Below are positions 2,383 through 26,650 of a stretch of 64,000 nt of DNA, piece after piece. How positions within the stretch are numbered: position 1 is the first letter of the stretch; each line of letters opens with the position of its first letter. A program made the position numbers and the translations under genes. The stretch lies in IMG/VR virus record IMGVR_UViG_3300023174_000037. One strand, 5' to 3'. The notes beneath the pieces are model-generated. The model was not told the origin of the DNA. It did no database searches and saw only the letters and a list, made by a program, of their open reading frames with translations. The stretch comes from a virus (Duplodnaviria > Caudoviricetes).

Positions 2383-3504
2383 ATGACATGGAATAAAGAA
2401 TTAAGAGCCATTCGATCTCTTCGAAGTGAACATCACGCCAACAACATTGAACCCAACGTCGTTAATATCAATTGGGACCTGGGCAAACGGTGTAATTATG
2501 ATTGCTCGTATTGCAGTCCAGCTATACACGACTGGACCAGCCCGCATCATTCCATTTCAGCTGTCAACGGCTTTATTCAGCAGGTAGATACCTGGATCCA
2601 ATCTCAAAACAAAACTTTCACTATGAGCATAACTGGCGGAGAGCCGTTTGTTCATCCCAACATACTTGAAATACTCAGAATCATTCGACAAGCCAAAACA
2701 TTCAAAGATCAGCTAGTGGTAATAACCAACGGATCTGTGCCGTTGGAATTGTATCGAACAGCATTCGAATACATAACACACTTGACCATAAGTCTGCATC
2801 TAGAAAGAAGCGATGCCGAAACACAAGCCACACTAGAAAAGGCTGTGGCCTTGCATCAAGAATTTCCAAACCATTGGATCAATGTTCAAGTCATGTGCTT
2901 GCCCGGAAAATTTGAGTTCCTTGAAAACGCTGTGATTCCGTTGTTGGAATCCAATGGTGTACGATTTACACTAAGAAGAATACGCCCTTGGTTAAACGAA
3001 GCAGTGGATGAATGGCAGACTGTATCAAAACGGCAAATACTCAAAACTGAATATACTTTAGAACAGCAAACTCAAATGAAGGAAGCCGAAAAGCTCAGGT
3101 TAGATACGAGATTAACACAAATATACAATTCAGAAGATTATTATACTGCCCAAGAACTGGCTTGGTTACGTAATCGGATTCCAGAAACCACATGGCAAAA
3201 CATCGGCATTTGGGACGAGGACATGCACTATCGTGAAGTCAACTCAGATCTCATGGTATCCAACAACCGTAATCAATTCAAAGGGTGGACTTGTTTTGCT
3301 GGCATTGACTCGTTGTTTATAGATTTTGACGGACTACTGTATCGAGGTGTGTGCCACAATGACGGACCAATTGGCCATATAAGCAAACAGATTGATTTTT
3401 CAAACGCACCCACTGTGTGTAAAAAACAGTGGTGTACCTCAAATGTGGATCAGACTGTGCGAAAGTCTCAGCCTGAATTCCTACATTTAATAACCAAAAG
3501 TTAA
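2383..3504 (+). CDS. Radical SAM protein with C-terminal SPASM/twitch-like Cys cluster
   Basis: CNYDCSYC, TGGEPF, ITNG; C-terminal CFAG..C..C..C. Confidence 0.85.
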   Translation: MTWNKELRAIRSLRSEHHANNIEPNVVNINWDLGKRCNYDCSYCSPAIHDWTSPHHSISAVNGFIQQVDTWIQSQNKTFTMSITGGEPFVHPNILEILRIIRQAKTFKDQLVVITNGSVPLELYRTAFEYITHLTISLHLERSDAETQATLEKAVALHQEFPNHWINVQVMCLPGKFEFLENAVIPLLESNGVRFTLRRIRPWLNEAVDEWQTVSKRQILKTEYTLEQQTQMKEAEKLRLDTRLTQIYNSEDYYTAQELAWLRNRIPETTWQNIGIWDEDMHYREVNSDLMVSNNRNQFKGWTCFAGIDSLFIDFDGLLYRGVCHNDGPIGHISKQIDFSNAPTVCKKQWCTSNVDQTVRKSQPEFLHLITKS

Positions 3505-4964: not shown

Positions 4965-5609
4965 ATGAAGCCCACAATAGCATTATTTGTCCACGATCCA
5001 AAGTGTTCGGTTCAATCAGGCAATGGCATAATGCAAGCTCTCGGCGAACACTATCGCTTCAAACTGTTCAGCAAGAATGCCTTGGAAGATTGTTTTTTTG
5101 ACAATGTGGATATGGTTGCATTTCCTGGAGGCATTGGTGATGCTGACAGTTTTGCTAGCCTACTAAAACATAACCAACGCCCAGTGACACAATTTGTCCA
5201 GCAAGGTGGCCGCTATCTAGGTATCTGTATGGGTGCCTACTGGGCCGGCAGTCATTACTTCAATATATTAGATTCAGTAGATGCTGTTCAATATATTACC
5301 CAACCGGGTGCAGATACAAGGAGACCACATGCTAAGAGCATTAATGTCAATTGGAATGGATCTAACACAGAAATGTTTTTTTACGATGGTTGTGCTTTGG
5401 TTGGTAACGGTAAGTTCGATACCATTGCTACGTATGCCAATGGTGATCCAATGGCCATTATCCAAAACAGAATAGGCCTAATTGGATGTCATCCCGAAAG
5501 TGAGCAGTTCTGGTACAACAGTTATAGCTGGATGCGACCACACTGGCATGAGCGTAGGCACCATCAGTTATTGTTAGATTTTGTAGATCAATTAATTTTT
5601 AGTAACTAG
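4965..5609 (+). CDS. Class I glutamine amidotransferase-like protein (BPL_N-type)
   Basis: FPGG.G, GGRYLGICMGAY nucleophile elbow, GCHPE His-x-Glu. Confidence 0.75.
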   Translation: MKPTIALFVHDPKCSVQSGNGIMQALGEHYRFKLFSKNALEDCFFDNVDMVAFPGGIGDADSFASLLKHNQRPVTQFVQQGGRYLGICMGAYWAGSHYFNILDSVDAVQYITQPGADTRRPHAKSINVNWNGSNTEMFFYDGCALVGNGKFDTIATYANGDPMAIIQNRIGLIGCHPESEQFWYNSYSWMRPHWHERRHHQLLLDFVDQLIFSN

Positions 5610-6596
5610 ATTGTCTCGGAATATTTCCCAAGCTCGTTCCCACGACCAGCGACGACTTCCTTCCCAAACCTGGTGCCGGTTCAAAAACAAACAATCAGTA
5701 ACCGCTTGTTTTAGGTCTGTATTCAAGCAACCTGTTATACCTTCGTCTACCACATCTAGTGGTCCTTGAACCGGATATGCTGCCACCGGAGTTCCGCAGG
5801 CCATTGCTTCGATCATTACAATACCAAACGTTTCCCACTCGCTAGGAAACACAAACACTTCGGCATTGGCATAATATCGTGCCAGTTCAACGCCAGTCTT
5901 GTATCCAGTAAAATGTACCTCAGGGTATTGTTTTCGGTAGGTTTCCAACATAGGACCGTCGCCTACCATAATTTTTAGATAACCAGGATAATCCAGTTCA
6001 AAAAACTTTTCTAAATTCTTTTCTTTACTAACACGGCTTACACATAATATATATCGGCTTGTTGTTTCTACTCTGTGTTCAGGATAGAATATTTCTCGAT
6101 CAACGCCACGTGTCCAACTAACAATCTCGCCATCAAATCCATGATCCTGCAATTCTTTTACCATGGTATCAGTGGTAGTCAACACTTTGCCACTGTGCTT
6201 GTGGAACCAACGCACTAGAGGCCAAGTAAGGCTCTCAGGTATGCCAAACAGTTTTCTAATTCCTTCTGGAAACTTAGTATGATAAGCAGTATTGTAGCGA
6301 TAACCGTGTTGGTCAAGATATTGTCTAGCACACAGACCCAAAGGACCTTCGGTGGCGATATGGATATAATCCGGACTGATCTCCTCAAATATCTTGCCCA
6401 CCGTGCGCTTCCTGGTAAGGGTAATCTTGACTTCGTTGTAGCCAGGGCAATCAACATAGCTGAACCGCCCGGGATCAAGATATACAACACGATAGTTGTC
6501 GCGAATCGCACACGCCTCAATATTTTTGTAGGTCGTAACCACGCCATTGATCTGCTCCGATAAGTTATCAGTTACTATAAGAATCGTCTTTGTCAT
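5592..6596 (-). CDS. GT4 glycosyltransferase, Agt-like (glycosyl/glucuronosyl-diacylglycerol synthase candidate)
   Basis: ILIVTD....QINGVVTT, IHIATEGPLG, YHTKFPE, SRVSKEKN, FPSEWETFGIVMIEAMACGTPV; coupled to the plcP-like gene. Confidence 0.8.
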   Translation of the reverse strand: MTKTILIVTDNLSEQINGVVTTYKNIEACAIRDNYRVVYLDPGRFSYVDCPGYNEVKITLTRKRTVGKIFEEISPDYIHIATEGPLGLCARQYLDQHGYRYNTAYHTKFPEGIRKLFGIPESLTWPLVRWFHKHSGKVLTTTDTMVKELQDHGFDGEIVSWTRGVDREIFYPEHRVETTSRYILCVSRVSKEKNLEKFFELDYPGYLKIMVGDGPMLETYRKQYPEVHFTGYKTGVELARYYANAEVFVFPSEWETFGIVMIEAMACGTPVAAYPVQGPLDVVDEGITGCLNTDLKQAVTDCLFLNRHQVWEGSRRWSWERAWEIFRDNLVTKN

Positions 6597-7344
6597 TTGA
6601 TTTTGTCCATGTTACTATATGCCATTGCCCGTCATGATGTTCTACCAGTGCTGAACAACTTTCAACCCAATCACCATCATTCATATACTCAACTCCATCT
6701 ATTGTTTTAATTTCTGCGTGATGTATGTGTCCGCATATTACACCATCGTACCCACGTTTTTTGCAATAGCCTGCTAGATTCTTTTCAAATTGAAACATAA
6801 AATCCGCGGCTTTTTTAACACGGTGTTTGAGATACTGGCTTAACGACCAGTAGCCAAATCCCAACTTGTGACGCACCCAATTAAATCTGCTGTTCCAATC
6901 CAGCACTAGGTCGTATAGTTTATCACCCATAAATGCAAGCCAAGGAGCAAGCCTAGTAATACCGTCAAATAAATCACCATGTGTAACCAAATAATGTTTG
7001 CCATTTATACCAATGTGTTCTGTTTGATTTACTATTTCTATGGCACCAAAGCCCATACCGTACGGAATCAACGGTCGAAGGAACTCGTCGTGATTGCCTG
7101 CTACGTAAATTACTCTAGTTCCACGCTTGGCGTGTCCTAGTATTCTACGAACAACATTGGTATGGCTCTGTTTCCAGCGCCATTTGTTTTGTTGAATTTT
7201 CCATGCGTCAATTATGTCGCCCACAAGATACAAGGTTTCACAGGTGTTGTGTTTGAGAAAATTGTTGAGTTGTTCAGCTTTACAATCTCGTGTACCGAGA
7301 TGAACGTCCGATATAAAAATTGAACGGTATGTTTTCTCTGGCAT
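6568..7344 (-). CDS. plcP: PlcP-type phospholipase C (metallophosphoesterase usually annotated UDP-2,3-diacylglucosamine hydrolase)
   Basis: RSIFISDVHLGTRDCKAE, YLVGDIIDAW, GNHDEFLR, THGDLFD, CGHIH, NDGDWVESCSALVE match the PlcP family pattern. Confidence 0.75.
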   Translation of the reverse strand: MPEKTYRSIFISDVHLGTRDCKAEQLNNFLKHNTCETLYLVGDIIDAWKIQQNKWRWKQSHTNVVRRILGHAKRGTRVIYVAGNHDEFLRPLIPYGMGFGAIEIVNQTEHIGINGKHYLVTHGDLFDGITRLAPWLAFMGDKLYDLVLDWNSRFNWVRHKLGFGYWSLSQYLKHRVKKAADFMFQFEKNLAGYCKKRGYDGVICGHIHHAEIKTIDGVEYMNDGDWVESCSALVEHHDGQWHIVTWTKSNDKDDSYSN

Positions 7345-7376
7345 GCATGTATTTACTGCAATGCCAGATAAAAAGT

Positions 7377-7394
7377 GTTACAGTTTTATTACTT
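7377..7394 (-). promoter_or_regulatory. Pho-box-like site upstream of plcP
   Basis: Minus strand AAGTAATAAAACTGTAAC, 14/18 identical to CTGTCATAAAACTGTCAC, 32 nt upstream of the plcP ATG. Confidence 0.5.
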
Positions 7395-7520
7395 GACTGA
7401 CTCGGTGTGCCTGTGCTTGAGACTTTTCTTTAGTAGTCTAAACCAAAACTTTTTAGCCTTGTCAACATTGTGTTCAATCTCGGCACGGTTTAATTTTAAA
7501 ATTAATTTTTTGACTTTCAT
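7389..7520 (-). CDS. Small basic protein, 43 aa (not in the ORF track)
   Basis: GGAGG RBS then MKVKKLILKLNRAEIEHNVDKAKKFWFRLLKKSLKHRHTESVK*. Confidence 0.6.
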   Translation of the reverse strand: MKVKKLILKLNRAEIEHNVDKAKKFWFRLLKKSLKHRHTESVK

Positions 7521-7589
7521 AATCACCTCCTCTGTAATATTACAATAACACTGTATATATCAAAAATCAACTAGAAAATTGTGACAAAG

Positions 7590-7666
7590 AAAAAGGACCT
7601 TTCGGCCCTTTAGCGTGGATTACGGATTCCCACGACACCTTATCTTGTGCCCGCTCTTTTATTTAG
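7590..7666 (-). ncRNA. Candidate small RNA: late-type promoter, two hairpins, intrinsic terminator
   Basis: CTAAATA (7666-7660), GGCAC-AAGAUAAG-GUGUC, CGUGG-11nt-CCACG, GGGCC-GAAA-GGUCC-UUUUU; no ORF. Confidence 0.4.
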
Positions 7667-7834
7667 TGGATGTATTATTACAAAGAGATGACTTCATCAA
7701 CAGCAAAATTATCACCGTCTACTGGATCACCGAGATCTATTTCACCACTGCTGACCAACTCCTCAGCCTGCTCAGCTGATTCAGCTTCTACCTCAACCAT
7801 ATAGGTCACGGTTTCGCTACAATACACACGAAAT

Positions 7835-8751: not shown

Positions 8752-9954
8752 CTACAGACTATAAATTTCAGGGCAAATAGTTTGAAGTTTTACAGGCAAG
8801 TCTTTTTCATACCAATCGACATATTCTAAAAAATCTTCATAACGATCAATATTCAATGGTAAACTTGTTATTAAATCGTGCAATGATCGTTCAAGTTCGT
8901 TGGTAATATCAAACTGGCCTAGTATTTTCTCTCTTGTTGCCGCGGGCAACACATTCACAGCCAAGTAGTCCGGATCAGTCAACACTCCACAGTCTAATTG
9001 TAACTGATGCTGTTGACACCATTTGACCAATGCTGGTAATTTGATTGCAGTTGAGGCCTGTATAGTGTGACATACCGCCACAAGAATTCCTTGTTGTTGT
9101 GCCGCAAGTATGTTTTGTTCTATTTGTGCCCAGTCGCTACCGGTCCTGGCCCAGTCCTGCACAGCACCTACACCTTCTAGGCTAATAGAGAAACTGACTT
9201 GTTTATAACCACGTAATCGTTCCACTGCGGCAACAAGATTTTGACTGCCATTAGTAATAAAATTTAAACTGATACGAGCTTTGTTTTCTTCGGGCTGATC
9301 AACTAGTATGCTGAACATTTTTTTATCTAACAACGGCTCACCACCCAATAATTGCAGTTGCATTATTGGTTGAGTTAAAATGTCAGACAGGTGTTGGTAT
9401 GATCTTAGCGACTGGTGGGTTGCAACAATATCTTGCAAGTATTCGGGCTGTTTTTGCAGTTTAAGTTGAACAAATTTATTATCTTGATTGTTGTTCCAAG
9501 TTTCATAAATTTTAGAACTACTTGCAGGGTTGCACATAACACAACTAAAATTGCAAACATTAGATAATTTGACATCAGCCGCTGTGATTCTATATTGATC
9601 AAAGTCGGGTGCCCGTTTGATAAAATGTGGAATCCAAGTCTTCAACAAGTCAGCGCCTTGTGTATTGGTCACAGTATCTACATGACTTTGTCGTAAGCTA
9701 CGCACATTGTTTGCTTCTTTTTTCCAACAACGGCTGCACTCAGACAGTTGGTTACCCTGTGTTAACTCTTTACGCAGATAATTTAGATAGTCACTGGTCA
9801 TAAATTCATGCACAGTGCTGTCATTTAATGAATATTCTTTTTGGCCGGCAAATTCAGATTGTGTTGTGTCAATTTCACAACAACTGCGAAACTGGCCGTC
9901 CCAGTCTATGCGTATTCTAAACCAAGGAGCGGCGCAAAAAGTAGTTGGATTCAT
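8752..9954 (-). CDS. Radical SAM protein with N-terminal twitch/SPASM-like domain
   Basis: [30 protein letters not shown]. Confidence 0.85.
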
Positions 9955-10541
9955 CGATTAGTAATTATTTTATCTGCAAGTCCATAGGACACTGCTTCCT
10001 CTGCTGACATAAAGTTATCACGTTCCATATCTGCTGTCAACTCGTCGAAGGTTTTGCCAGCAGTATTGTGCTTGACATAAATCTCTGTTAGGTATTTCTT
10101 CATTTTTAAAATCTCTTGTGCTTGAATCTGAATGTCTGTTGCTTGTCCTCTAGCGCCGCCGGATGGTTGATGAATCATATGACGTGCATTAGGCAAAATT
10201 AAACGTTTACCAGCGGCACCAGCTTGTGCCAGGCATGATCCCATGCTGCAAGCCTGTCCCATTACTACGGTTGAAACATCTGGTTTAATAAACTGCATTG
10301 TATCGTAGATTGCCATACCTGCTGTAACACTACCGCCTGGGCTATTGATGTAGAACAAGATATCTTTGTCAGGATCTTCTGACTCTAAAAACAACATCTG
10401 CGCCACAATTAAACTGGCCGTGTGTTCGTTCACATCTGTATCCAGCATGACAATTCTATCACGCAGGAGTCTACTGTATATATCGTAACTGCGTTCTCCA
10501 TTAGCGGTTTTTTCTACTACAATCGGCACTAAATTTGACAT
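9951..10541 (-). CDS. clpP: ATP-dependent Clp protease proteolytic subunit
   Basis: [29 protein letters not shown] (Ser), MIHQP (His), ERDNFM (Asp). Confidence 0.97.
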
Positions 10542-13353: not shown

Positions 13354-14058
13354 TTATGTTCTTAATTTTGCCAAACTCACAGAACGTAAAATACAGATAT
13401 ACATCCAACCTATATCAAATTCCCACCAAGTTTTGGAGAGGCGAGCACTGGCCGGTGCAAGGTGGTGGTTGTTGTGCAACTCTTCGCCACCAATCACAAT
13501 GCCCCAAGGACTAATATTCCTACTGTGATCTTTAGTTTTGCCATTTCTATATCCTATCCAATGAGCAACACCGTTAATAACGCCTGCGGCCCAGAACGGA
13601 ATCCATAGCATTTGTATGCCCCAGACCAATAATCCCCACCAACCAAATATCAGGGTGTTGAGCACAAGGAGAAGGCCAATGCCAAGTCTACTGTAAGGCT
13701 GGTATACGTGAAGCTCCATCCAATCAGCAGGAGTACCAACACCGTATGTATCAACCATAGTTTTATCTTTTGATGCCGCATGATATAACAATGCTCCTTT
13801 AAACAATACACGCCAGATTCCATAAACATGTGGCGTGTGCGGATCACCTTCTACATCACTAAATCTATGATGTTTTCGGTGTATAGCTACCCATTGTTTG
13901 GTAACCATACCAGTTGTTAACCACAGCCAAAAGCGCATAAAATGTGCAATTACAGGGTTAAATTCTACCGCTCGGTGTGCTTGGCTGCGGTGTAAATAAA
14001 GGGTAACACAGGCTATAGTAATGTGAGTCATTACTAGGGTTGCAATAATTGTTGACAT
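13354..14058 (-). CDS. Fatty acid (acyl-lipid/acyl-CoA delta-9-type) desaturase
   Basis: His boxes HRSQAH, HRKHH, HNNHH; GEELHNNHH and WEFDIGW motifs. Confidence 0.92.
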   Translation of the reverse strand: MSTIIATLVMTHITIACVTLYLHRSQAHRAVEFNPVIAHFMRFWLWLTTGMVTKQWVAIHRKHHRFSDVEGDPHTPHVYGIWRVLFKGALLYHAASKDKTMVDTYGVGTPADWMELHVYQPYSRLGIGLLLVLNTLIFGWWGLLVWGIQMLWIPFWAAGVINGVAHWIGYRNGKTKDHSRNISPWGIVIGGEELHNNHHLAPASARLSKTWWEFDIGWMYICILRSVSLAKLRT

Positions 14059-16400: not shown

Positions 16401-16489
16401 ATAATATTAAAGTTTTATGACGTTAAACCCTGTTCACTAATTTGAAATCTAATGGTTTATAAACTAAATATTTCACAAGGAGATTTATT

Positions 16490-17131: not shown

Positions 17132-17365
17132 CTACTGATGTGTCCATTTTAATTTAAACAAAATAGCATCTTTAGGATCTTCAAATCTAAAAGCAAATCC
17201 TTCAGTCTGATGCCATCCATGCACATGATATCTGCTGGGACTACTATGTAGATTGCACCAACTGTATATTTCATTTACATGTGGACTATCATCTTCCAGT
17301 AACCAATCCCAACTGACTACACATTCGTGCCATTCAGGCGGCGGCCAAAGTTTTAACTGTATCAT
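17132..17365 (-). CDS. Hypothetical protein
   Basis: Ends FAFRFEDPKDAILFKLKW, a motif common in small large-phage ORFs. Confidence 0.55.
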   Translation of the reverse strand: MIQLKLWPPPEWHECVVSWDWLLEDDSPHVNEIYSWCNLHSSPSRYHVHGWHQTEGFAFRFEDPKDAILFKLKWTHQ

Positions 17366-18395
17366 CTACCAACCCCAGTTCTACAGCCCTGTTGTAAACC
17401 TGTTCACTGGCCAAGTTCTTGCCCTTGCTTTCACATTGGATATCAAAACGATCCCAAAAACTCAATGCCCAGTCTGTTACTGGTTGATTCCAATAAAAAT
17501 CACTGTGCGCCCGCATCTTTTGTTTTTTGTAGCCTGATTCCAACAACAATGCATGATCCGGAAGAATATCTATAGCATGATCTACCAACACATCTTCACG
17601 ACTCACGCTGTAATGTAGTGCAGGTCTAACACCACGCCATGAATCAATTACACGATCAAGTCTATGGTCGGTGGCCTGAATGTATTCTCCAGTACGGATC
17701 CAGTGGTGGTGTATGTCAAGCACAAGGGCACAATCGTTGGCAAGCTCGAGACTGCTGTCGATTCCCCAGGCGTTTTCGTCGTTTTCGATTGTGATGCAGT
17801 TTCTTGCTTCGGGAGATAACCGTCGGAGGGCATCGCGAATACCGGCGGGACCGCGTTTACCCGAAATGTGGACATTGATTTTGAAGTCTTGAAACGTCCG
17901 ACCGTATCCCATCCATCTGACCATATCAGCATGATATTCAAACTCCTCTACACTTCTATTTACAATACCTTCGTTCTCTGATGCCAGCACACAGAACTGT
18001 CCTGGGTGAAAACTAAGTCTAACATCTAGTCTGCGAGCCGTTTCGCCAATAGGAGCAAAAATCCGTTCCAGATGGTCTTGTATTTCTCTACGTTGCCACC
18101 AGGCTTGCCAATCCTTCTCAGTGTAGCCTTGCAACATTTCACTGCCCAGTCGAACCATTCTACGATTGGCCGGCAAGCTGGCCACACGCTCAATCAACTT
18201 GACTGCGGCTGTAGTATTGTGGTTCATGATGTCCCACTGCCGTTGTTCGGCTTCGGCTGGATGCTCACGCAACCAGCGCATGGTAGTTGAACGCCCGTTA
18301 AGGTCTCGATCCACTGCATTGACTTTCATACCGCCACATTCGGACGGGTCATTTAGCCATTTGCAACAGAAACCAATACGCTTTAGTGTAGTCAT
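17334..18395 (-). CDS. uvsE: UV damage endonuclease
   Basis: RIGFCCK, RLGSEML, RLSFHPGQF, INVHISG, TIENDE, LDIHHH, HYS, RAHSD, ESKGK. Confidence 0.93.
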   Translation of the reverse strand: MTTLKRIGFCCKWLNDPSECGGMKVNAVDRDLNGRSTTMRWLREHPAEAEQRQWDIMNHNTTAAVKLIERVASLPANRRMVRLGSEMLQGYTEKDWQAWWQRREIQDHLERIFAPIGETARRLDVRLSFHPGQFCVLASENEGIVNRSVEEFEYHADMVRWMGYGRTFQDFKINVHISGKRGPAGIRDALRRLSPEARNCITIENDENAWGIDSSLELANDCALVLDIHHHWIRTGEYIQATDHRLDRVIDSWRGVRPALHYSVSREDVLVDHAIDILPDHALLLESGYKKQKMRAHSDFYWNQPVTDWALSFWDRFDIQCESKGKNLASEQVYNRAVELGLVDDTVKTLAAA

Positions 18396-23896: not shown

Positions 23897-24479
23897 GGCA
23901 ACATTAGTTTACATACATGGCGCCAGTGCAACCAGTGAAAGTTTCAACTATATCAGAACTAAATTAGGCAAGGGCATTGACGTCAATTACGATAGCCGTA
24001 ATGGGTTTGAAAATAATCTTGCGGAAATAATTGAGCAACTTAAAAATGTCAAAGACATATTTTTTATAGCACATAGCCTGGGCGGCATTTATTCATTGCA
24101 TATTGCCAATGCTATTCCCATGCAAGTGCTGGGTGCTGTTACACTTAGCACACCGTATGGCGGTGCCGAAGTGGCAGACGTTGCCAAATATTTTTTACCG
24201 TTTAGCAGACTCATGAGAGATATTGGTCCCAACAGTTGGGTAATGAAACAAGCAGATAAGATCAAAATACAGCATCCATGGACCAATGTGGTCACTGTCA
24301 AGGGACAAAGTCCCTTTATTGCGGAGCCCAATGATGGTGTAGTAACCATTGATAGCCAACGCCATCATGTGGACATGGAATTAGTGGATGTGGACTACAA
24401 TCATTATGAAGTGTTACAGGCCGAGTCTGTGGTTAAACTTATTAAATTAAAAAAAGATTACTTTGAAGTAGCCCTGTAG
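23880..24479 (+). CDS. Alpha/beta hydrolase (lipase/esterase-like)
   Basis: YIHG, AHSLGG nucleophile elbow, NDGVV, NHYEV. Confidence 0.85.
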   Translation: MMDKNEATLVYIHGASATSESFNYIRTKLGKGIDVNYDSRNGFENNLAEIIEQLKNVKDIFFIAHSLGGIYSLHIANAIPMQVLGAVTLSTPYGGAEVADVAKYFLPFSRLMRDIGPNSWVMKQADKIKIQHPWTNVVTVKGQSPFIAEPNDGVVTIDSQRHHVDMELVDVDYNHYEVLQAESVVKLIKLKKDYFEVAL

Positions 24480-26470
24480 GTGCCATCCCAATCTGTGGGT
24501 TTACCTGCGGTAAGCCTTTCAGACATGTTATCATAATAATCCTTCATCTCAGGAGAAGCATTTTTACACAATGGTATTAGTGTGAGTGCTTTTTTCCAAT
24601 CGCCTGCATAATACAATGCCAAGAACTGACGATGCTGTTCTGTTTCGTGCGCCAGTGTGTAAATTATCACACCTTCTTTTTTACCTTTGACCGCAATTTT
24701 GTCCAGCTCAAAGATATCGTATTCGTCCTTGACATACTCTGCAGTCGTTGTCCCAAGTACGATTCTGACGCCGTAGTTCTTACTCTGTCCCTCCAAGCGG
24801 GATGCCAGATTAACACCGTCGCCCAGACAAGTATAGTCAAACCGTTGATCAGATCCCATATTACCCACCACAACAGTGTCGGTATTAATTCCAAGGCCCA
24901 TACCAAATGCTGGTACGCCTTCTGCTGTAACTTCTTGATTAAATTCATCCAATGACTCCATCATTTGTAGTGCTGTTCGTACGGCATCTTTAGCGTGTTG
25001 AGTGTTGTCCAACGGTGCATTCCAGAATGCCATTTGTGCATCACCAATGTATTTGTCTAGTGTACCTTTGTTTTCAAGAATCTTCTTAGTCATTGCTGTC
25101 ATATAGCGATTCATGATTCGAGTTAGGCCCTGAACGTCTTTACCGTAGTGTTCACTGATACTGGTAAAGCCGCGCACATCGGTGAACATAATTGATAATT
25201 CTCGACTGTCACCACCCAACACCAGCAGGTCAGGGTTGCGTTGTAGTTGTGCCACTAGATCTGGACTTAGGTAGGTTCCAAACTGTTTCTTTATTTGTTG
25301 TTTGGCTAAGAATTCAGATACAAACTTAACACCATAAGCATGGAGAAGCACAAGCACAAGCCCAGCGAGCGGAATAGTTGCATCCAAAAGCCAAGCATGA
25401 GTTCTATACATCCAACTAGAAAATAGTAAACCGCCGCCGAGTAACAAAATAGAGCAAGAAATCCCAACATATATCCACCTTGATAAAAATAATAACGCAA
25501 CACCAGCTACCAATATAAAAATAATTTCAGCGCCGTCAGCCCAATCGGGTCTAGTAATAGCAGGTCTGTCTCGATTGGCAATCACGGTGCCGATTACAGC
25601 AGCTTGTAAATCTTGTGGTAACATTTCACCCAGGCTGGTAGCCACTGGGTTGGACAGGCCCACGGCACTGACTCCTACAATAACTATCTCGCCGTTGAAA
25701 TCTTGAGGCAAGTTGGTTAAACTATATCTATCTGGAACAAGCGACCAATCAATCCATATACGACTTAGGCTATCTGTAGCAATAGGACCAAACTTGGGAA
25801 TACGCATTTTCTCAACGCCCGTCTCATTTATCTTGACTTGGAATGTGGTATCGCCCGCAGCCACACGCATTACTTCCATGGCAAGACTAGGATACAGTCG
25901 ACCTTGGCTATCAGCCACCATTGGCATACGGCGAACAACTCCATCCACTTCAGGCAGTGTGTTTACTAACCCAACACCCACGGCGGCATTTTCCACAGCA
26001 GGTACGTTGGCAATAATACCAGGATATGTAATAAACGGTCTCTCAAACGGACCAATTACAGCCGATCCCGGAACCTTTGGAGTATTGCGTGAAGTCTGTG
26101 ATCCAACATTAGGAAGAATTGTCGGGTACTGGCGTAGTGCCTGGATGTAGGCCGCGTCCTGTCCCATGCGATCACGATCAGGAGTAAGGACGTTAAAAAC
26201 AACAAGACCTGCATTACGGCGATAAAGTTCTCGAATAATTGAACCGTATATATCTCGGGAAAAAGGAAATTGACCATATTGTTCCACTGCCTTTTCATCA
26301 ATGTTTACTACACTTACTCCAATTGTTTCAGCAGGTTTACTGGTTATCAGTGTGTCAAAGTAACGTAGTCTTACGCTTTCAACAAATGAGGGATCTGCTA
26401 TACGTATACCCACTACTAACGCTAGGGTTAGTAGAGCAGTCCATGGACTTGTTAATATTTTTTTAAGCAT
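24458..26470 (-). CDS. CHASE2-domain class III adenylate cyclase (start probably 26470)
   Basis: N-terminal TM, CHASE2 (GQFPFSR, DGVVRRMP), three TMs, catalytic FTDVRGFT, LDKYIGDA (ATP-specifying Lys), FDYTCLGDGVNLASRLEG. Confidence 0.93.
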   Translation of the reverse strand: MLKKILTSPWTALLTLALVVGIRIADPSFVESVRLRYFDTLITSKPAETIGVSVVNIDEKAVEQYGQFPFSRDIYGSIIRELYRRNAGLVVFNVLTPDRDRMGQDAAYIQALRQYPTILPNVGSQTSRNTPKVPGSAVIGPFERPFITYPGIIANVPAVENAAVGVGLVNTLPEVDGVVRRMPMVADSQGRLYPSLAMEVMRVAAGDTTFQVKINETGVEKMRIPKFGPIATDSLSRIWIDWSLVPDRYSLTNLPQDFNGEIVIVGVSAVGLSNPVATSLGEMLPQDLQAAVIGTVIANRDRPAITRPDWADGAEIIFILVAGVALLFLSRWIYVGISCSILLLGGGLLFSSWMYRTHAWLLDATIPLAGLVLVLLHAYGVKFVSEFLAKQQIKKQFGTYLSPDLVAQLQRNPDLLVLGGDSRELSIMFTDVRGFTSISEHYGKDVQGLTRIMNRYMTAMTKKILENKGTLDKYIGDAQMAFWNAPLDNTQHAKDAVRTALQMMESLDEFNQEVTAEGVPAFGMGLGINTDTVVVGNMGSDQRFDYTCLGDGVNLASRLEGQSKNYGVRIVLGTTTAEYVKDEYDIFELDKIAVKGKKEGVIIYTLAHETEQHRQFLALYYAGDWKKALTLIPLCKNASPEMKDYYDNMSERLTAGKPTDWDGTYRATSK

Positions 26471-26650
26471 TGAGTATTTAACAGTCATGGTTAGAGAGTT
26501 TCTGTTTTTACTTGTTCTTCTGGTAAATCATTATAGTTGTGTCTGCGGCAAGTTTTCATGTAGGTTTTAGCATCGCCAACTTTGGATACTAACTGGCAAG
26601 GTTCTTTGCAATCAGCGACTTGGCATATTGGTGGAACATCTATTATCATA

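What the first reader, a model, noticed from the sequence alone, without database searches (positions are those of the whole stretch)
5592..7394. Phage-borne PlcP-Agt phospholipid-replacement pair with a Pho-box-like site
Seen: a PlcP-pattern phosphoesterase overlapping a GT4 of the Agt pattern, with AAGTAATAAAACTGTAAC (14/18 to the Pho box consensus) 32 nt upstream and a further TTGTCAC half site at 7587-7581. Established: PlcP releases diacylglycerol and phosphate from phospholipids and Agt builds P-free glycolipids under PhoB control in SAR11, Agrobacterium and Sinorhizobium. Inference: the phage mines host membrane phospholipids for phosphate for genome synthesis while keeping the membrane intact, switched on by host PhoB. 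A late-type GTAAATA also lies 5 nt before the ATG, suggesting dual control.
Basis: partly seen in the sequence, partly recalled or inferred. Interest (0 to 1): 0.75.

Follow-up and report, generated by a model that had tools for sequence, protein, structure and literature searches.

The report
Phage PlcP-Agt lipid-swap operon, Pho box
A giant uncultured lake phage carries the bacterial two-enzyme pathway that replaces membrane phospholipids with phosphorus-free sugar lipids, behind a conserved DNA site that looks like the host's phosphate-starvation switch, so the phage probably frees phosphorus from the host membrane when phosphate is scarce.

Summary
The 258-aa enzyme (7344..6568, minus) is a PlcP-type phospholipase C, not LpxH. 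It nests among proteobacterial PlcP, while true LpxH from the same genomes forms a separate clade. The overlapping 334-aa GT4 (6596..5592) is Agt-type: 44% identical over its full length to the agt homologue next to plcP in Burkholderia latens, in the arrangement of the B. cenocepacia plcP-agt-dagK operon. Homologues sit directly downstream of plcP in 54 of 80 bacterial loci.

The Pho-box call is no better than chance against the E. coli consensus. Comparison rescues it:
- About 30 related phage promoters keep an 11-bp-period NTGTAAY repeat, 21-22 nt before TAAATA and 5 nt before the ATG.
- A matrix built from those sites ranks the window's site first in 64 kb.
- The composite is found only beside plcP in relatives of up to 289 kb.
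- The matrix detects pstS promoters of Burkholderiales (11/35 versus 0/630 control windows).

PhoB binding and enzyme activity remain untested.

New here: a covarying two-hairpin RNA (7660..7585) linked to the module in 29 of 84 sources searched.

This scan had already reported phage plcP-agt on other genomes. I found no paper describing it.

The parts
6568..7344 (-). plcP: LpxH-like metallophosphoesterase of the PlcP (phospholipase C) subfamily, 258 aa, with no signal peptide
   Evidence: Matches Pfam Metallophos. Scores only 40 bits on LpxH model TIGR01854, cut-off 190. Metal-binding residues D13, H15, D43, N84, H85, H122, H206 and H208 are invariant. It is 50-58% identical to proteobacterial plcP and sits in the PlcP clade of the tree. 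The AF2 model has pLDDT 88.6, and its best solved fold is LpxH with lipid X at 16-21% identity.
5592..6596 (-). agt: GT4 (GT-B) diacylglycerol glycosyltransferase of the Agt/GTcp clade, 334 aa, overlapping plcP by 29 nt
   Evidence: Matches Pfam Glyco_transf_4 plus Glycos_transf_1. It is 44% identical over 328 aa to the agt homologue next to plcP in B. latens. Homologues lie downstream of plcP in 54 of 80 bacterial loci and in most related phage loci that have room downstream. Its motifs are SRVSKEKN and FPSEWETFG, where the cellular genes have GRVAxEKN and FPSxTDTFG (PMC8231724).
7377..7394 (-). Pho-box-like direct repeat (AAGTAAT-AAAA-CTGTAAC). It overlaps the stop codon of the upstream small ORF and lies 21 nt before TAAATA
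   Evidence: Scores 21.5 bits with a matrix built from 30 other phage loci, the top hit in the window. Its position is conserved in about 30 promoter variants. The composite is unique to the plcP region in relatives of 130-289 kb. The same matrix detects pstS promoters.
7350..7355 (-). TAAATA box, of the T4-type late-promoter kind, 5 nt before the plcP ATG. There is no Shine-Dalgarno sequence, so the mRNA would be leaderless or nearly so
   Evidence: It keeps a 4-6 nt gap to the ATG in all 36 promoter variants that carry it. In the window, 10 of 37 TAAATA copies lie 3-10 nt before the ATG of an ORF of at least 50 aa, far more than for permuted hexamers.
7389..7526 (-). Small basic ORF (45 aa) with a strong GGAGG ribosome-binding site, read in the same direction into plcP. 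It is a shortened form of a roughly 60-aa ORF conserved upstream in relatives
   Evidence: No Pfam or PHROG match.
7536..7563 (-). Sigma-70-like promoter (TTGATA-16-AATATT with an upstream TG) for the small ORF. In relatives, a strong inverted copy of the box (22-24.5 bits) overlaps this region. In the window that copy is degenerate (7532..7550, + strand, 10.3 bits)
7585..7660 (-). Structured RNA element: two 5-bp hairpins with conserved 9-nt loops, followed by an intrinsic terminator (hairpin 7611..7592). It lies behind its own TAAATA (7665..7660) and a weak box (7694..7677, 12/18 to the E. coli consensus)
   Evidence: Covariance model R1 scores it at 74.1 bits. It was found in 29 of 84 sources searched (28 plcP-bearing phage loci plus this window), always on the plcP strand. 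97.5% of cells are paired and 12 of 17 pairs show compensatory changes, against 0 of 500 shuffles and far lower values in slid controls. No Rfam family matches. The terminator was found.
7581..7587 (-). It lies in the tail of the terminator
   Evidence: Present and conserved in close relatives. It has no partner half site at 11 bp, so it is not supported as a PhoB site.
4965..5609 (+). Convergent neighbouring gene, BPL_N / class-I glutamine-amidotransferase-like (214 aa), with its own TAAATA 7 nt before the ATG. It lies next to the module in a subset of related phage loci

Best explanation
The window comes from an uncultured giant T4-related freshwater phage that carries a phage-adapted copy of the proteobacterial plcP-agt lipid-renovation operon.

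Proposed mechanism:
1. PlcP is a cytoplasmic, membrane-peripheral, LpxH-fold metallophosphoesterase. It cuts the phosphorylated head group off host glycerophospholipids and leaves diacylglycerol.
2. The translationally coupled Agt-type GT4 glycosylates that diacylglycerol from a UDP-sugar. This makes phosphorus-free glycolipid, so the membrane stays intact until lysis.
3. The released phospho-head groups feed the phosphorus pool that a very large phage genome needs.

Proposed control of transcription:
- An 18-bp direct repeat of the proteobacterial Pho-box type is read by host PhoB under phosphate starvation.
- A TAAATA box 5 nt before the ATG is the phage's own late-type promoter.
- Read-through from the upstream small ORF is also possible.

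Shown here: family membership, synteny, intact catalytic motifs, conservation and genomic specificity of the box, and its identity in sequence with bacterial pstS promoter boxes.

Inferred: PhoB binding, phospholipase and glycosyltransferase activities, which sigma factor uses which element, and the fate of the phosphorus.
For: Enzyme identity:
- PlcP, not LpxH.
- 50-58% identical to plcP of alpha-, beta- and gammaproteobacteria, with metal ligands conserved.
- LpxH-like fold with a two-helix lid, model pLDDT 88.6.
- Agt-type GT4: 44% identical over its full length to the B. latens homologue. It carries the clade's UDP-sugar motifs. Solved GT4 enzymes match only part of it, at E about 5e-10.

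The operon as a known pathway:
- The Burkholderia plcP-agt-dagK operon is induced by low phosphate, and its agt makes MGDG and GADG in E. coli (PMC13691135).
- Synteny holds in 54 of 80 bacterial loci.
- More than 600 IMG/VR contigs carry an 83-92% identical plcP. Among the 80 fetched, most loci with room downstream also carry the GT4.

The box:
- Conserved at 21-22 nt from TAAATA behind at least three unrelated upstream contexts, including terminators.
- Window site scores 21.5 bits, the top hit in 64 kb.
- The composite is unique to the plcP region in relatives of up to 289 kb.
- The phage-derived matrix finds pstS upstream regions in Burkholderiales: 11 of 35 at 12 bits or more, against 0 of 630 control windows, Fisher p = 1.6e-15. 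It also finds them in 8 of 8 Pseudomonadales at 8.9 bits or more and is enriched before bacterial plcP.

Precedent: cyanophage genes under host PhoB control (PMC10976474).

Weak evidence of expression: contigs from RNA libraries of two studies match plcP (190 nt, 0 differences) and agt (195 nt laid, 1 difference).
Against: - Nothing biochemical has been shown.
- Against the E. coli consensus, the site is no better than chance.
- Pho-box prediction in phages has been shown to be unreliable without EMSA (PMC10976474).
- The geometry is not canonical. The box ends 21 nt before TAAATA, not 10. In the window's subgroup the hexamer at the canonical distance (TGGCAT) lacks the -11 A. PhoB normally works through sigma-70 region 4, which a T4-type late sigma lacks.
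- About half of the related phage loci have no box. There plcP directly follows a staphylococcal-type nuclease gene or a holin-like gene. Phosphate control is therefore lineage-specific and the module's benefit may not be tied to phosphate.
- Most phage Agt proteins have Trp-Glu where cellular Agt has Thr-Asp at the catalytic position, so donor or acceptor preference may differ.
- No pstS was found in five related contigs.
- The host is unknown.
Confidence: 0.65

Rival explanations
1. The enzymes are as described, but the direct repeat is the operator of a phage-encoded regulator, or an upstream element of a special class of phage promoter. It is not a host PhoB site, and expression follows the phage's own timing and is independent of phosphate.
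For: - The box always travels with the phage's own TAAATA box at fixed distances of 9-11 or 21-22 nt.
- The 21-nt spacing is not the canonical PhoB geometry.
- In relatives, three boxes cluster within 350 nt, one of them inverted over a sigma-70-like promoter. This could be a dedicated operator region.
- The related contigs hold no other recognised phosphate genes.
Against: - A matrix built only from phage sites picks out pstS promoters of two bacterial orders, against 0 of 630 control windows at 12 bits or more. A private phage operator would not be expected to do that.
- Bacterial plcP is a Pho-regulon gene (PMC4796936; PMC13691135).
- No winged-helix OmpR/PhoB-type protein was found in five related contigs.
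- In the relatives' RNA promoter, the box sits 9-11 nt before TAAATA, which is the canonical distance from a Pho box to the -10 element.
Confidence: 0.15
2. The module serves infection mechanics rather than phosphorus supply. It might change the inner-membrane lipid make-up to time or assist lysis, to exclude superinfecting phages, or to alter the cell envelope. Any phosphate released would be incidental.
For: - In other phage loci plcP is fused in operons directly behind a holin-like 3-TM protein (with a DUF4337 gene and a non-specific endonuclease gene upstream), or behind a staphylococcal-type nuclease, with no box.
- The TAAATA late-type promoter implies late expression whatever the phosphate level.
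- A fatty-acid desaturase gene lies in the same window and near plcP in L003, so the phage modifies lipids more broadly.
- Lipid remodelling is known to change phage attachment and grazing (titles and abstracts of PMC9938194 and PMC9457565).
Against: - Pairing PlcP with Agt preserves the bilayer rather than destroying it.
- The Pho-type box is conserved in roughly 30 of 71 distinct upstream variants.
- Nucleases next to plcP fit phosphorus scavenging equally well.
Confidence: 0.12
3. The metallophosphoesterase is a true LpxH and the GT4 an LPS or surface-sugar transferase. On this reading the pair alters lipid A or LPS, as database annotations of the phage homologues say.
For: - JGI and GenBank name the homologues UDP-2,3-diacylglucosamine hydrolase.
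- The nearest solved fold is LpxH.
Against: - 40 bits on TIGR01854 against a cut-off of 190, whereas real LpxH in genomes that also hold a plcP scores 236-336 bits and their plcP paralogues score 30-42 bits.
- LpxH forms a separate clade.
- Only 16-21% identical to solved LpxH structures.
- The partner GT4 is orthologous to the diacylglycerol glycosyltransferase encoded next to plcP.
Confidence: 0.03

Closest known systems
Bacterial PlcP-Agt(-DagK) phosphate-starvation lipid remodelling: Burkholderia cenocepacia BCAL2364-66 (PMC13691135); SAR11 HTCC7211 and Phaeobacter MED193 plcP-agt (PMC4796936); Agrobacterium Agt atu2297 and SAR11 GTcp (PMC8231724)
   Same: - Same two enzyme subfamilies, in the same order and on the same strand, tightly coupled.
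- 53% (PlcP) and 44% (Agt) identical to the B. latens proteins.
- Agt has the same length as GTcp, 334 aa.
- A Pho-box-type direct repeat lies upstream, as in the bacterial operons.
   Different: - Encoded by a lytic-type giant phage, and no dagK is present.
- The phage PlcP forms its own clade on a long stem.
- The phage Agt has SRVSKEKN and FPSxWETFG where the cellular genes have GRVAxEKN and FPSxTDTFG.
- The promoter combines the box with a phage TAAATA box 5 nt from the ATG, and there is no Shine-Dalgarno sequence.
- A conserved structured RNA travels with the module.
Cyanophage phosphate-stress auxiliary genes (pstS, phoA and others) controlled by host PhoBR through Pho boxes (Zeng and Chisholm 2012, as cited in PMC10976474; S-PM2d study, PMC10976474)
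   Same: - A T4-like phage places host-derived phosphorus-economy genes under the host's phosphate-starvation regulator.
- The regulatory box is of the host's type.
   Different: - Those genes act in phosphate uptake or ester hydrolysis, not membrane lipid replacement.
- They use the cyanobacterial box type (PyTTAAPyPyT/A); this one is the proteobacterial TGTCAY/TGTAAY type.
- PhoB binding was shown by EMSA there and has not been shown here.
LpxH (UDP-2,3-diacylglucosamine hydrolase; TIGR01854; PDB 5B49, 6PH9)
   Same: Calcineurin-like core with an inserted helical lipid-binding lid. It is the best structural match.
   Different: The window protein scores below the family cut-off (40 versus 190 bits), is 16-21% identical, and falls in a separate clade from LpxH of genomes that hold both paralogues.
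Pelagibacter phage Mosig EXVC030M gene Mosig_00120 and Synechococcus phage S-SRM01 QPX48289, both annotated as LpxH
   Same: These are homologues in cultured T4-like phages, 52% and 38% identical. In Mosig the gene is divergent from a pstS-like gene.
   Different: No Agt-type GT4 lies next to them. Both are deposited under a lipid A (LpxH) product name.

Membership tests
PlcP (LpxH-like metallophosphoesterase phospholipase C) | Calcineurin-like metallophosphoesterase with intact metal-binding motifs (DxH, GD, GNHD/E, H, GHxH) | tested here: met
   Pfam Metallophos at 4.6e-10. D13, H15, D43, N84, H85, H122, H206 and H208 are invariant in a 25-sequence alignment.
PlcP (LpxH-like metallophosphoesterase phospholipase C) | Groups with plcP paralogues, not with LpxH, in genomes that hold both | tested here: met
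   In the tree of 95 proteins, LpxH is a separate clade (97% support) and the phage clade nests among Pseudomonas- and Burkholderia-type plcP. On the LpxH model, LpxH scores 236-336 bits, the plcP paralogues 30-42 and the window protein 40.
PlcP (LpxH-like metallophosphoesterase phospholipase C) | Operon with an enzyme that uses diacylglycerol to make a phosphorus-free lipid | tested here: met
   An Agt-type GT4 overlaps plcP by 29 nt. The same pairing occurs in 54 of 80 bacterial loci and in most phage loci with room downstream.
PlcP (LpxH-like metallophosphoesterase phospholipase C) | Phospholipase C activity on membrane glycerophospholipids | not testable with these tools
   Needs an enzyme assay or lipidomics.
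Agt / GTcp clade of GT4 diacylglycerol glycosyltransferases | GT-B fold with GT4 N- and C-terminal domains, about 334 aa | tested here: met
   Glyco_transf_4 plus Glycos_transf_1. It is 334 aa, the same as GTcp.
Agt / GTcp clade of GT4 diacylglycerol glycosyltransferases | High identity within the clade (46-58% reported) but under 25% to other GT4 enzymes (PMC8231724) | tested here: met
   40-46% identical over residues 5-330 to the GT4 genes next to plcP, and 44% to the B. latens agt homologue. Solved GT4 structures match only the C-terminal part, at E about 5e-10 or weaker.
Agt / GTcp clade of GT4 diacylglycerol glycosyltransferases | UDP-sugar motifs GRVAxEKN and FPSxTDTFG, with a His-Asp catalytic dyad | tested here: inconclusive
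   Both motifs are present but altered: SRVSKEKN and FPSEWETFG. The clade's Asp is Glu here, which restores the classical ExxxxxxxE of GT4. 40 of the 50 phage copies with a readable motif share WE, while 48 of 49 cellular copies have D.
Agt / GTcp clade of GT4 diacylglycerol glycosyltransferases | Makes glucosyl- or glucuronosyl-diacylglycerol from a UDP-sugar and diacylglycerol | not testable with these tools
   Needs heterologous expression and lipid mass spectrometry.
LpxH (TIGR01854 / NF003743 equivalog) | Score above the curated family cut-off | tested here: not met
   40 bits against 190.35, and 50.6 bits against 134.
Pho box (PhoB binding site) | Two 7-bp direct repeats of the TGTCA type at an 11-bp period with an A/T-rich spacer | tested here: met
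   The site reads AAGTAAT-AAAA-CTGTAAC. Orthologous phage sites give the consensus NTGTAAY-A-N-A-A-N-TGTAAY, and some have TGTCAY. The same half-site variants occur before pstS in Burkholderiales and Pseudomonadales.
Pho box (PhoB binding site) | Placed about 10 bp upstream of the -10 hexamer, replacing the -35 element | tested here: inconclusive
   For plcP the box ends 21-22 nt before TAAATA, one helical turn further than canonical. Many relatives have a -10-like hexamer (TATGCT, GATACT or AATACT) at 10-11 nt, but the window has TGGCAT. For the linked RNA promoter in relatives the box is 9-11 nt before TAAATA, which is canonical.
Pho box (PhoB binding site) | Bound by phosphorylated PhoB, with expression induced by low phosphate | not testable with these tools
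   Needs EMSA or footprinting and reporter assays. PMC10976474 warns that predicted phage Pho boxes can fail this test.
T4-type late promoter | TATAAATA-like -10 element without a -35 element, close to gene starts | tested here: met
   GTAAATA lies 5 nt before the ATG. TAAATA is under-represented in the window (37 copies), yet 10 copies lie 3-10 nt before the ATG of an ORF of at least 50 aa. Dependence on a gp55-like sigma factor was not tested.

The most novel reading that the evidence does not exclude
The phage has built a small Pho regulon of its own around a single shared -10-like element.

- The same TAAATA box would serve host sigma-70 polymerase when PhoB sits on the adjacent box. This gives phosphate-dependent expression at any time in infection.
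- It would also serve the phage late sigma factor, giving phosphate-independent late expression.
- The regulon would include the lipid-swap enzymes and a dedicated, covarying two-hairpin small RNA.
- That RNA is made either from its own box-TAAATA promoter or as the 3' end of the plcP-agt mRNA. It would act on host or phage transcripts during phosphate stress.
Probability: 0.2. Interest if true: 0.8.

Novelty: new variant of a known kind. Interest (0 to 1): 0.66.

Why it matters
Known phage auxiliary genes for phosphorus act on uptake or ester hydrolysis (pstS, phoA, phoD, phoH). A survey of phage phosphorus-acquisition genes does not mention lipids or phospholipases at all (PMC10987575).

A phage that turns the host's own membrane phospholipids into a phosphorus source, while patching the membrane with glycolipid, adds a new route by which viruses reshape cellular phosphorus budgets and lake or ocean lipid pools.

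The gene is very common. More than 600 IMG/VR contigs carry it, and near-identical DNA occurs in freshwater metagenomes of at least seven studies. It is filed as 'LpxH', so viral gene surveys read it as LPS biosynthesis.

The conserved box gives a testable case of a host two-component regulator controlling a giant phage's promoter alongside a late promoter. The linked RNA is a new candidate phage small RNA.

Tried and rejected
- Counting matches to the E. coli Pho-box consensus in the window: 5 observed against 4.2 expected. This is not informative by itself.
- Nucleotide search of cultured phages: no match.
- Papers on phage plcP: none found with five term sets.
- The window's own genome is not held.
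- pstS (PF12849) and OmpR/PhoB-type regulators (PF00486) in five related phage contigs: none found. Four of the five are estimated incomplete.
- The second composite hit in a relative (L181) lies before a gp25-like baseplate gene. I read it as a chance match to an ordinary late promoter.
- A second window site (16423..16405, 13.9 bits, TAAATA 20 nt downstream) could not be checked. No relatives of the downstream 201-aa protein were retrieved, and that protein has no Pfam match.
- Rfam for the RNA element: no family; the only hit was a chance miRNA match at E 0.31.
- dagK downstream of the B. latens locus: not recognised by Pfam among my ORF calls, so I rely on the paper for operon content.
- Host inference from box type failed. 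The matrix recognises both Burkholderiales and Pseudomonadales pstS promoters.
- Laid RNA-library contigs cover only parts of plcP and agt and none of the promoter. They cannot show a transcription start or strand, and DNA carry-over is not excluded.
- A reading of CTGGCATTGCA as a sigma-54 promoter was rejected, because the GG-GC spacing is 4 nt rather than 10.
- No complex prediction was run.


Full report
**What is in the sequence**

On the minus strand, a 258-aa ORF (7344..6568) overlaps a 334-aa ORF (6596..5592) by 29 nt.
- The first ORF matches the calcineurin-like phosphoesterase families.
- The second matches both halves of GT4 glycosyltransferases.
- The 18-mer AAGTAATAAAACTGTAAC (7394..7377) ends 32 nt before the ATG.
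- TAAATA (7355..7350) lies 5 nt before the ATG, with no Shine-Dalgarno sequence.
- TTGTCAC lies at 7587..7581.

**Origin of the window**

- The window has 42% G+C and no tRNA genes.
- It encodes ribonucleotide reductase, DNA ligase and ClpP.
- It also encodes an adenylate-cyclase-like protein that is 37% identical to those of pelagimyophage HTVC008M and Methylophilales phage Melnitz.
- No whole genome is held for it.
- Earlier notes of this scan call the genome a giant T4-related freshwater phage. My own data fit that: close homologues lie on viral contigs of up to 289 kb in IMG/VR and 513 kb in ENA, with phage-like neighbours. Near-identical DNA occurs in freshwater metagenomes of at least seven studies.

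**PlcP or LpxH?**

- The protein scores 40 and 50.6 bits on the two NCBIfam LpxH equivalogs, whose cut-offs are 190 and 134.
- It scores 22.6 bits against solved P. aeruginosa LpxH.
- An exhaustive profile-free search found 896 clusters at E below 1e-30. The nearest clusters outside its own are about 55% identical.
- A genome scan returned 80 bacterial loci with 49-58% identity, nearly all from Alpha-, Beta- and Gammaproteobacteria, including Pseudomonas and Burkholderia.
- In four genomes that carry such a gene, the LpxH model finds a true LpxH at 236-336 bits and the plcP-type paralogue at only 30-42 bits.
- In a maximum-likelihood tree of 95 proteins, the five LpxH sequences form a separate, long-branched clade (97% support). 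The phage proteins nest inside the plcP-type clade. Eight freshwater-phage sequences form one group (99%). Together with Mosig and two bacterial sequences, it is sister to a Pseudomonas-containing group.
- The metal ligands are invariant.
- An AlphaFold model (pLDDT 88.6) has the phosphoesterase core plus two long inserted helices. Its best solved matches are LpxH-lipid X complexes at only 16-21% identity. This fits a lipid-directed enzyme of the LpxH fold that is not LpxH.

**Is the GT4 an Agt?**

- Its homologue lies immediately downstream of plcP, on the same strand, in 54 of the 80 bacterial loci, at 35-46% identity and full-length in most.
- Against Burkholderia latens, a member of the B. 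cepacia complex, PlcP is 53% identical and the GT4 is 44% identical over 328 residues.
- In B. cenocepacia, plcP-agt-dagK (BCAL2364-66) is induced by phosphate depletion. Its agt alone makes MGDG and GADG in E. coli. Burkholderia species of the three pathogen-containing clades examined carry the operon (PMC13691135).
- The SAR11 enzyme GTcp is also 334 aa long. Its clade is reported to be under 25% identical to other GT4 enzymes and to carry the motifs GRVAxEKN and FPSxTDTFG (PMC8231724).
- The window protein has SRVSKEKN and FPSEWETFG. The Thr-Asp to Trp-Glu change is shared by 40 of the 50 phage copies with a readable motif. Of 49 cellular copies, 48 keep Asp.
- I therefore file it in the Agt clade as a phage-specific variant. 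Its sugar donor is unknown.

**How common is the module in phages?**

- More than 600 IMG/VR contigs encode an 83-92% identical PlcP.
- Among the 80 fetched, most loci with room downstream also carry the GT4, at 50-93% identity. It either overlaps plcP, follows after a short gap, or follows after one inserted gene.
- Cultured phages Mosig and S-SRM01 have only the plcP homologue, annotated as LpxH. In Mosig it is divergent from a pstS-like gene.

**The Pho box**

Against the E. coli consensus, the window holds 5 sites at 14/18 or better, against 4.2 +/- 2.6 expected. The consensus match alone proves nothing. Four comparative tests change the picture.

1. *Footprint.* Among 71 distinct upstream regions of phage plcP, 36 have TAAATA 4-6 nt before the ATG. 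About 30 of these (30 relatives plus the window) carry a direct repeat NTGTAAY-N4-NTGTAAY that ends 21-22 nt before TAAATA. In some lineages the half sites are TGTCAY, CGTAAY, TGCAAT or TTTAAY. This holds even though the flanking sequence and the upstream gene differ. The upstream neighbour can be a small basic ORF, a different small ORF, or a terminator hairpin.
2. *Window-wide ranking.* A matrix built from the 30 other sites, leaving the window out, scores the window site at 21.5 bits. That is the top hit of the window on either strand, and no simulated sequence reached it.
3. *Genome specificity.* In five related contigs of 131-289 kb, the composite 'box, 20-23 nt, TAAATA' occurs only at plcP. 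The one extra match lies before a gp25-like late gene. The composite 'box, 8-12 nt, TAAATA' occurs only next to plcP. The box is therefore not a general promoter class of the phage.
4. *Cross-recognition of pstS.* The phage-derived matrix finds the upstream regions of pstS, the archetypal PhoB target.
   - In genomes sampled evenly from the GTDB order Burkholderiales, 11 of 35 pstS upstream windows score 12 bits or more, against 0 of 630 control windows from the same loci (Fisher p = 1.6e-15). Sites include TTGTAATATTTCTGTAAC and GTGTAATAATTGTGTAAC.
   - All 8 Pseudomonadales pstS regions examined score 8.9 bits or more.
   - Bacterial plcP upstream regions are also enriched: 7 of 78 at 10 bits or more, against 1 of 1700 controls.

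No OmpR/PhoB-type protein was found in the five related phage contigs. The simplest reading is that the box is a proteobacterial Pho box read by host PhoB.

Binding itself is not shown. A cyanophage study found that predicted phage Pho boxes can fail EMSA (PMC10976474).

**Promoter geometry**

- TAAATA is the phage's start-proximal promoter box. It is rare in the window (37 copies), yet 10 copies lie 3-10 nt before the ATG of an ORF of at least 50 aa. This agrees with earlier notes on this genome.
- In plcP promoters the box ends 21-22 nt before TAAATA, one helical turn further than the canonical 10 bp.
- Many relatives have a -10-like hexamer (TATGCT, GATACT or AATACT) at the canonical 10-11 nt. 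The window's subgroup has TGGCAT there.
- In relatives, a second box lies 9-11 nt before another TAAATA, which is the canonical distance. That TAAATA drives the RNA described below.
- The evidence therefore allows two designs. In one, a PhoB-dependent sigma-70 promoter is nested just upstream of a late promoter. In the other, one TAAATA serves both polymerase forms. Which design applies needs 5'-end mapping.
- Read-through from the sigma-70-like promoter of the 45-aa ORF (7563..7536) is also possible, because no terminator intervenes.

**The linked RNA**

- Between the previous gene and the small ORF lies a 76-nt element (7660..7585, minus strand). It has two 5-bp hairpins with conserved 9-nt loops and an intrinsic terminator.
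- A covariance model finds it in 29 of 84 sources searched (28 plcP-bearing phage loci plus this window), always on the plcP strand. It sits either upstream behind TAAATA (with or without a box) or directly after the agt stop codon.
- 97.5% of cells are paired and 12 of 17 pairs show compensatory changes. None of 500 shuffles reached these values, and the slid controls are far lower.
- Rfam has no matching family.
- In the window its box is weak: 12/18 to the E. coli consensus and 4.2 bits with the phage matrix.

**Limits and alternatives**

- About half of the related loci lack any box. There plcP starts at the stop codon of a staphylococcal-type nuclease gene, or of a holin-like 3-TM gene preceded by a DUF4337 gene and a non-specific endonuclease gene. 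Phosphate control is therefore lineage-specific.
- A role in lysis or envelope change cannot be excluded. However, pairing with Agt argues for keeping the membrane intact, not breaking it.
- PlcP frees the phosphorylated head group, not inorganic phosphate (PMC4796936), so further enzymes are needed to release the phosphate.
- Contigs from RNA libraries of two studies match plcP and agt almost perfectly. Transcription is not proven by this.

**Novelty**

- The pathway and PhoB control of phage genes are both known.
- I found no paper describing a phage plcP-agt module.
- This scan had already reported the module on other genomes, so it is not new to the scan.
- New here are three things: the cross-validation of the box against bacterial pstS promoters, the box-TAAATA geometry, and the linked structured RNA.

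Noticed in passing
window 7585-7660 (-), with its TAAATA at 7660-7665 and a weak box at 7677-7694: A conserved two-hairpin RNA plus terminator, with no Rfam family. It is linked to plcP-agt in 29 of 84 sources searched (28 phage loci plus this window). It lies either upstream behind a box/TAAATA promoter or directly after the agt stop codon. Covariation is strong: 12 of 17 pairs show compensatory changes.
   Followed up: yes
L098 2015-2033, L117/L120/L121 about 2763-2782, L110/L133/L134/L137 about 2755-2775 (minus strand of each locus); window 7532-7550 (+): Relatives carry a very strong inverted copy of the box (22-24.5 bits) overlapping the -10 and ribosome-binding region of the small ORF's sigma-70-like promoter. 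In the window one half site has decayed (10.3 bits). It may repress that promoter when PhoB is bound. This is unexplained.
   Followed up: partly
window 16405-16423 (-): A second box-like site (ACGTCATAAAACTTTAATA, 13.9 bits) lies 20 nt before a TAAATA. It sits upstream of small ORFs and a 201-aa gene with no Pfam match. No relatives were retrieved, so its conservation is unknown.
   Followed up: partly
window 13354-14058 (-); also L003 4475-5185: A fatty-acid desaturase gene (PF00487), which is a second membrane-lipid-modifying gene in the phage. In the 513-kb contig it lies about 3 kb from plcP.
   Followed up: no
L108 2570-2995 and L105 1177-2995: In other phage lineages plcP starts at the stop codon of a staphylococcal-nuclease-like gene, or of a holin-like (GTA_holin_3TM) gene preceded by a DUF4337 gene and a non-specific endonuclease gene. 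No Pho-type box lies within 3 kb.
   Followed up: partly
window 5592-6596 (-), residues about 250-258: Phage Agt proteins have FPSxWETFG where cellular Agt proteins have FPSxTDTFG. This is a clade-wide Thr-Asp to Trp-Glu change at the catalytic position, and it may alter sugar donor choice.
   Followed up: partly
window 4965-5609 (+): A BPL_N / glutamine-amidotransferase-like gene convergent with agt, overlapping it by 18 nt, with TAAATA 7 nt before its ATG. It recurs next to the module in a subset of related loci, in either orientation.
   Followed up: no
window 24458-26488 (-), 9951-10541 (-), 17334-18395 (-), 2383-3504 (+) and 8752-9954 (-): Other cargo genes in the window: an adenylate/guanylate-cyclase-like protein shared with HTVC008M and Melnitz, ClpP, a UvdE UV endonuclease, and two radical-SAM enzymes.
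   Followed up: no
L003 (ENA contig of 513,110 bp): A contig of over 500 kb with phage-like gene content (a GP38 domain, many small ORFs) carries the same plcP-agt pair. It is either a very large phage genome or an assembly artefact.
   Followed up: no
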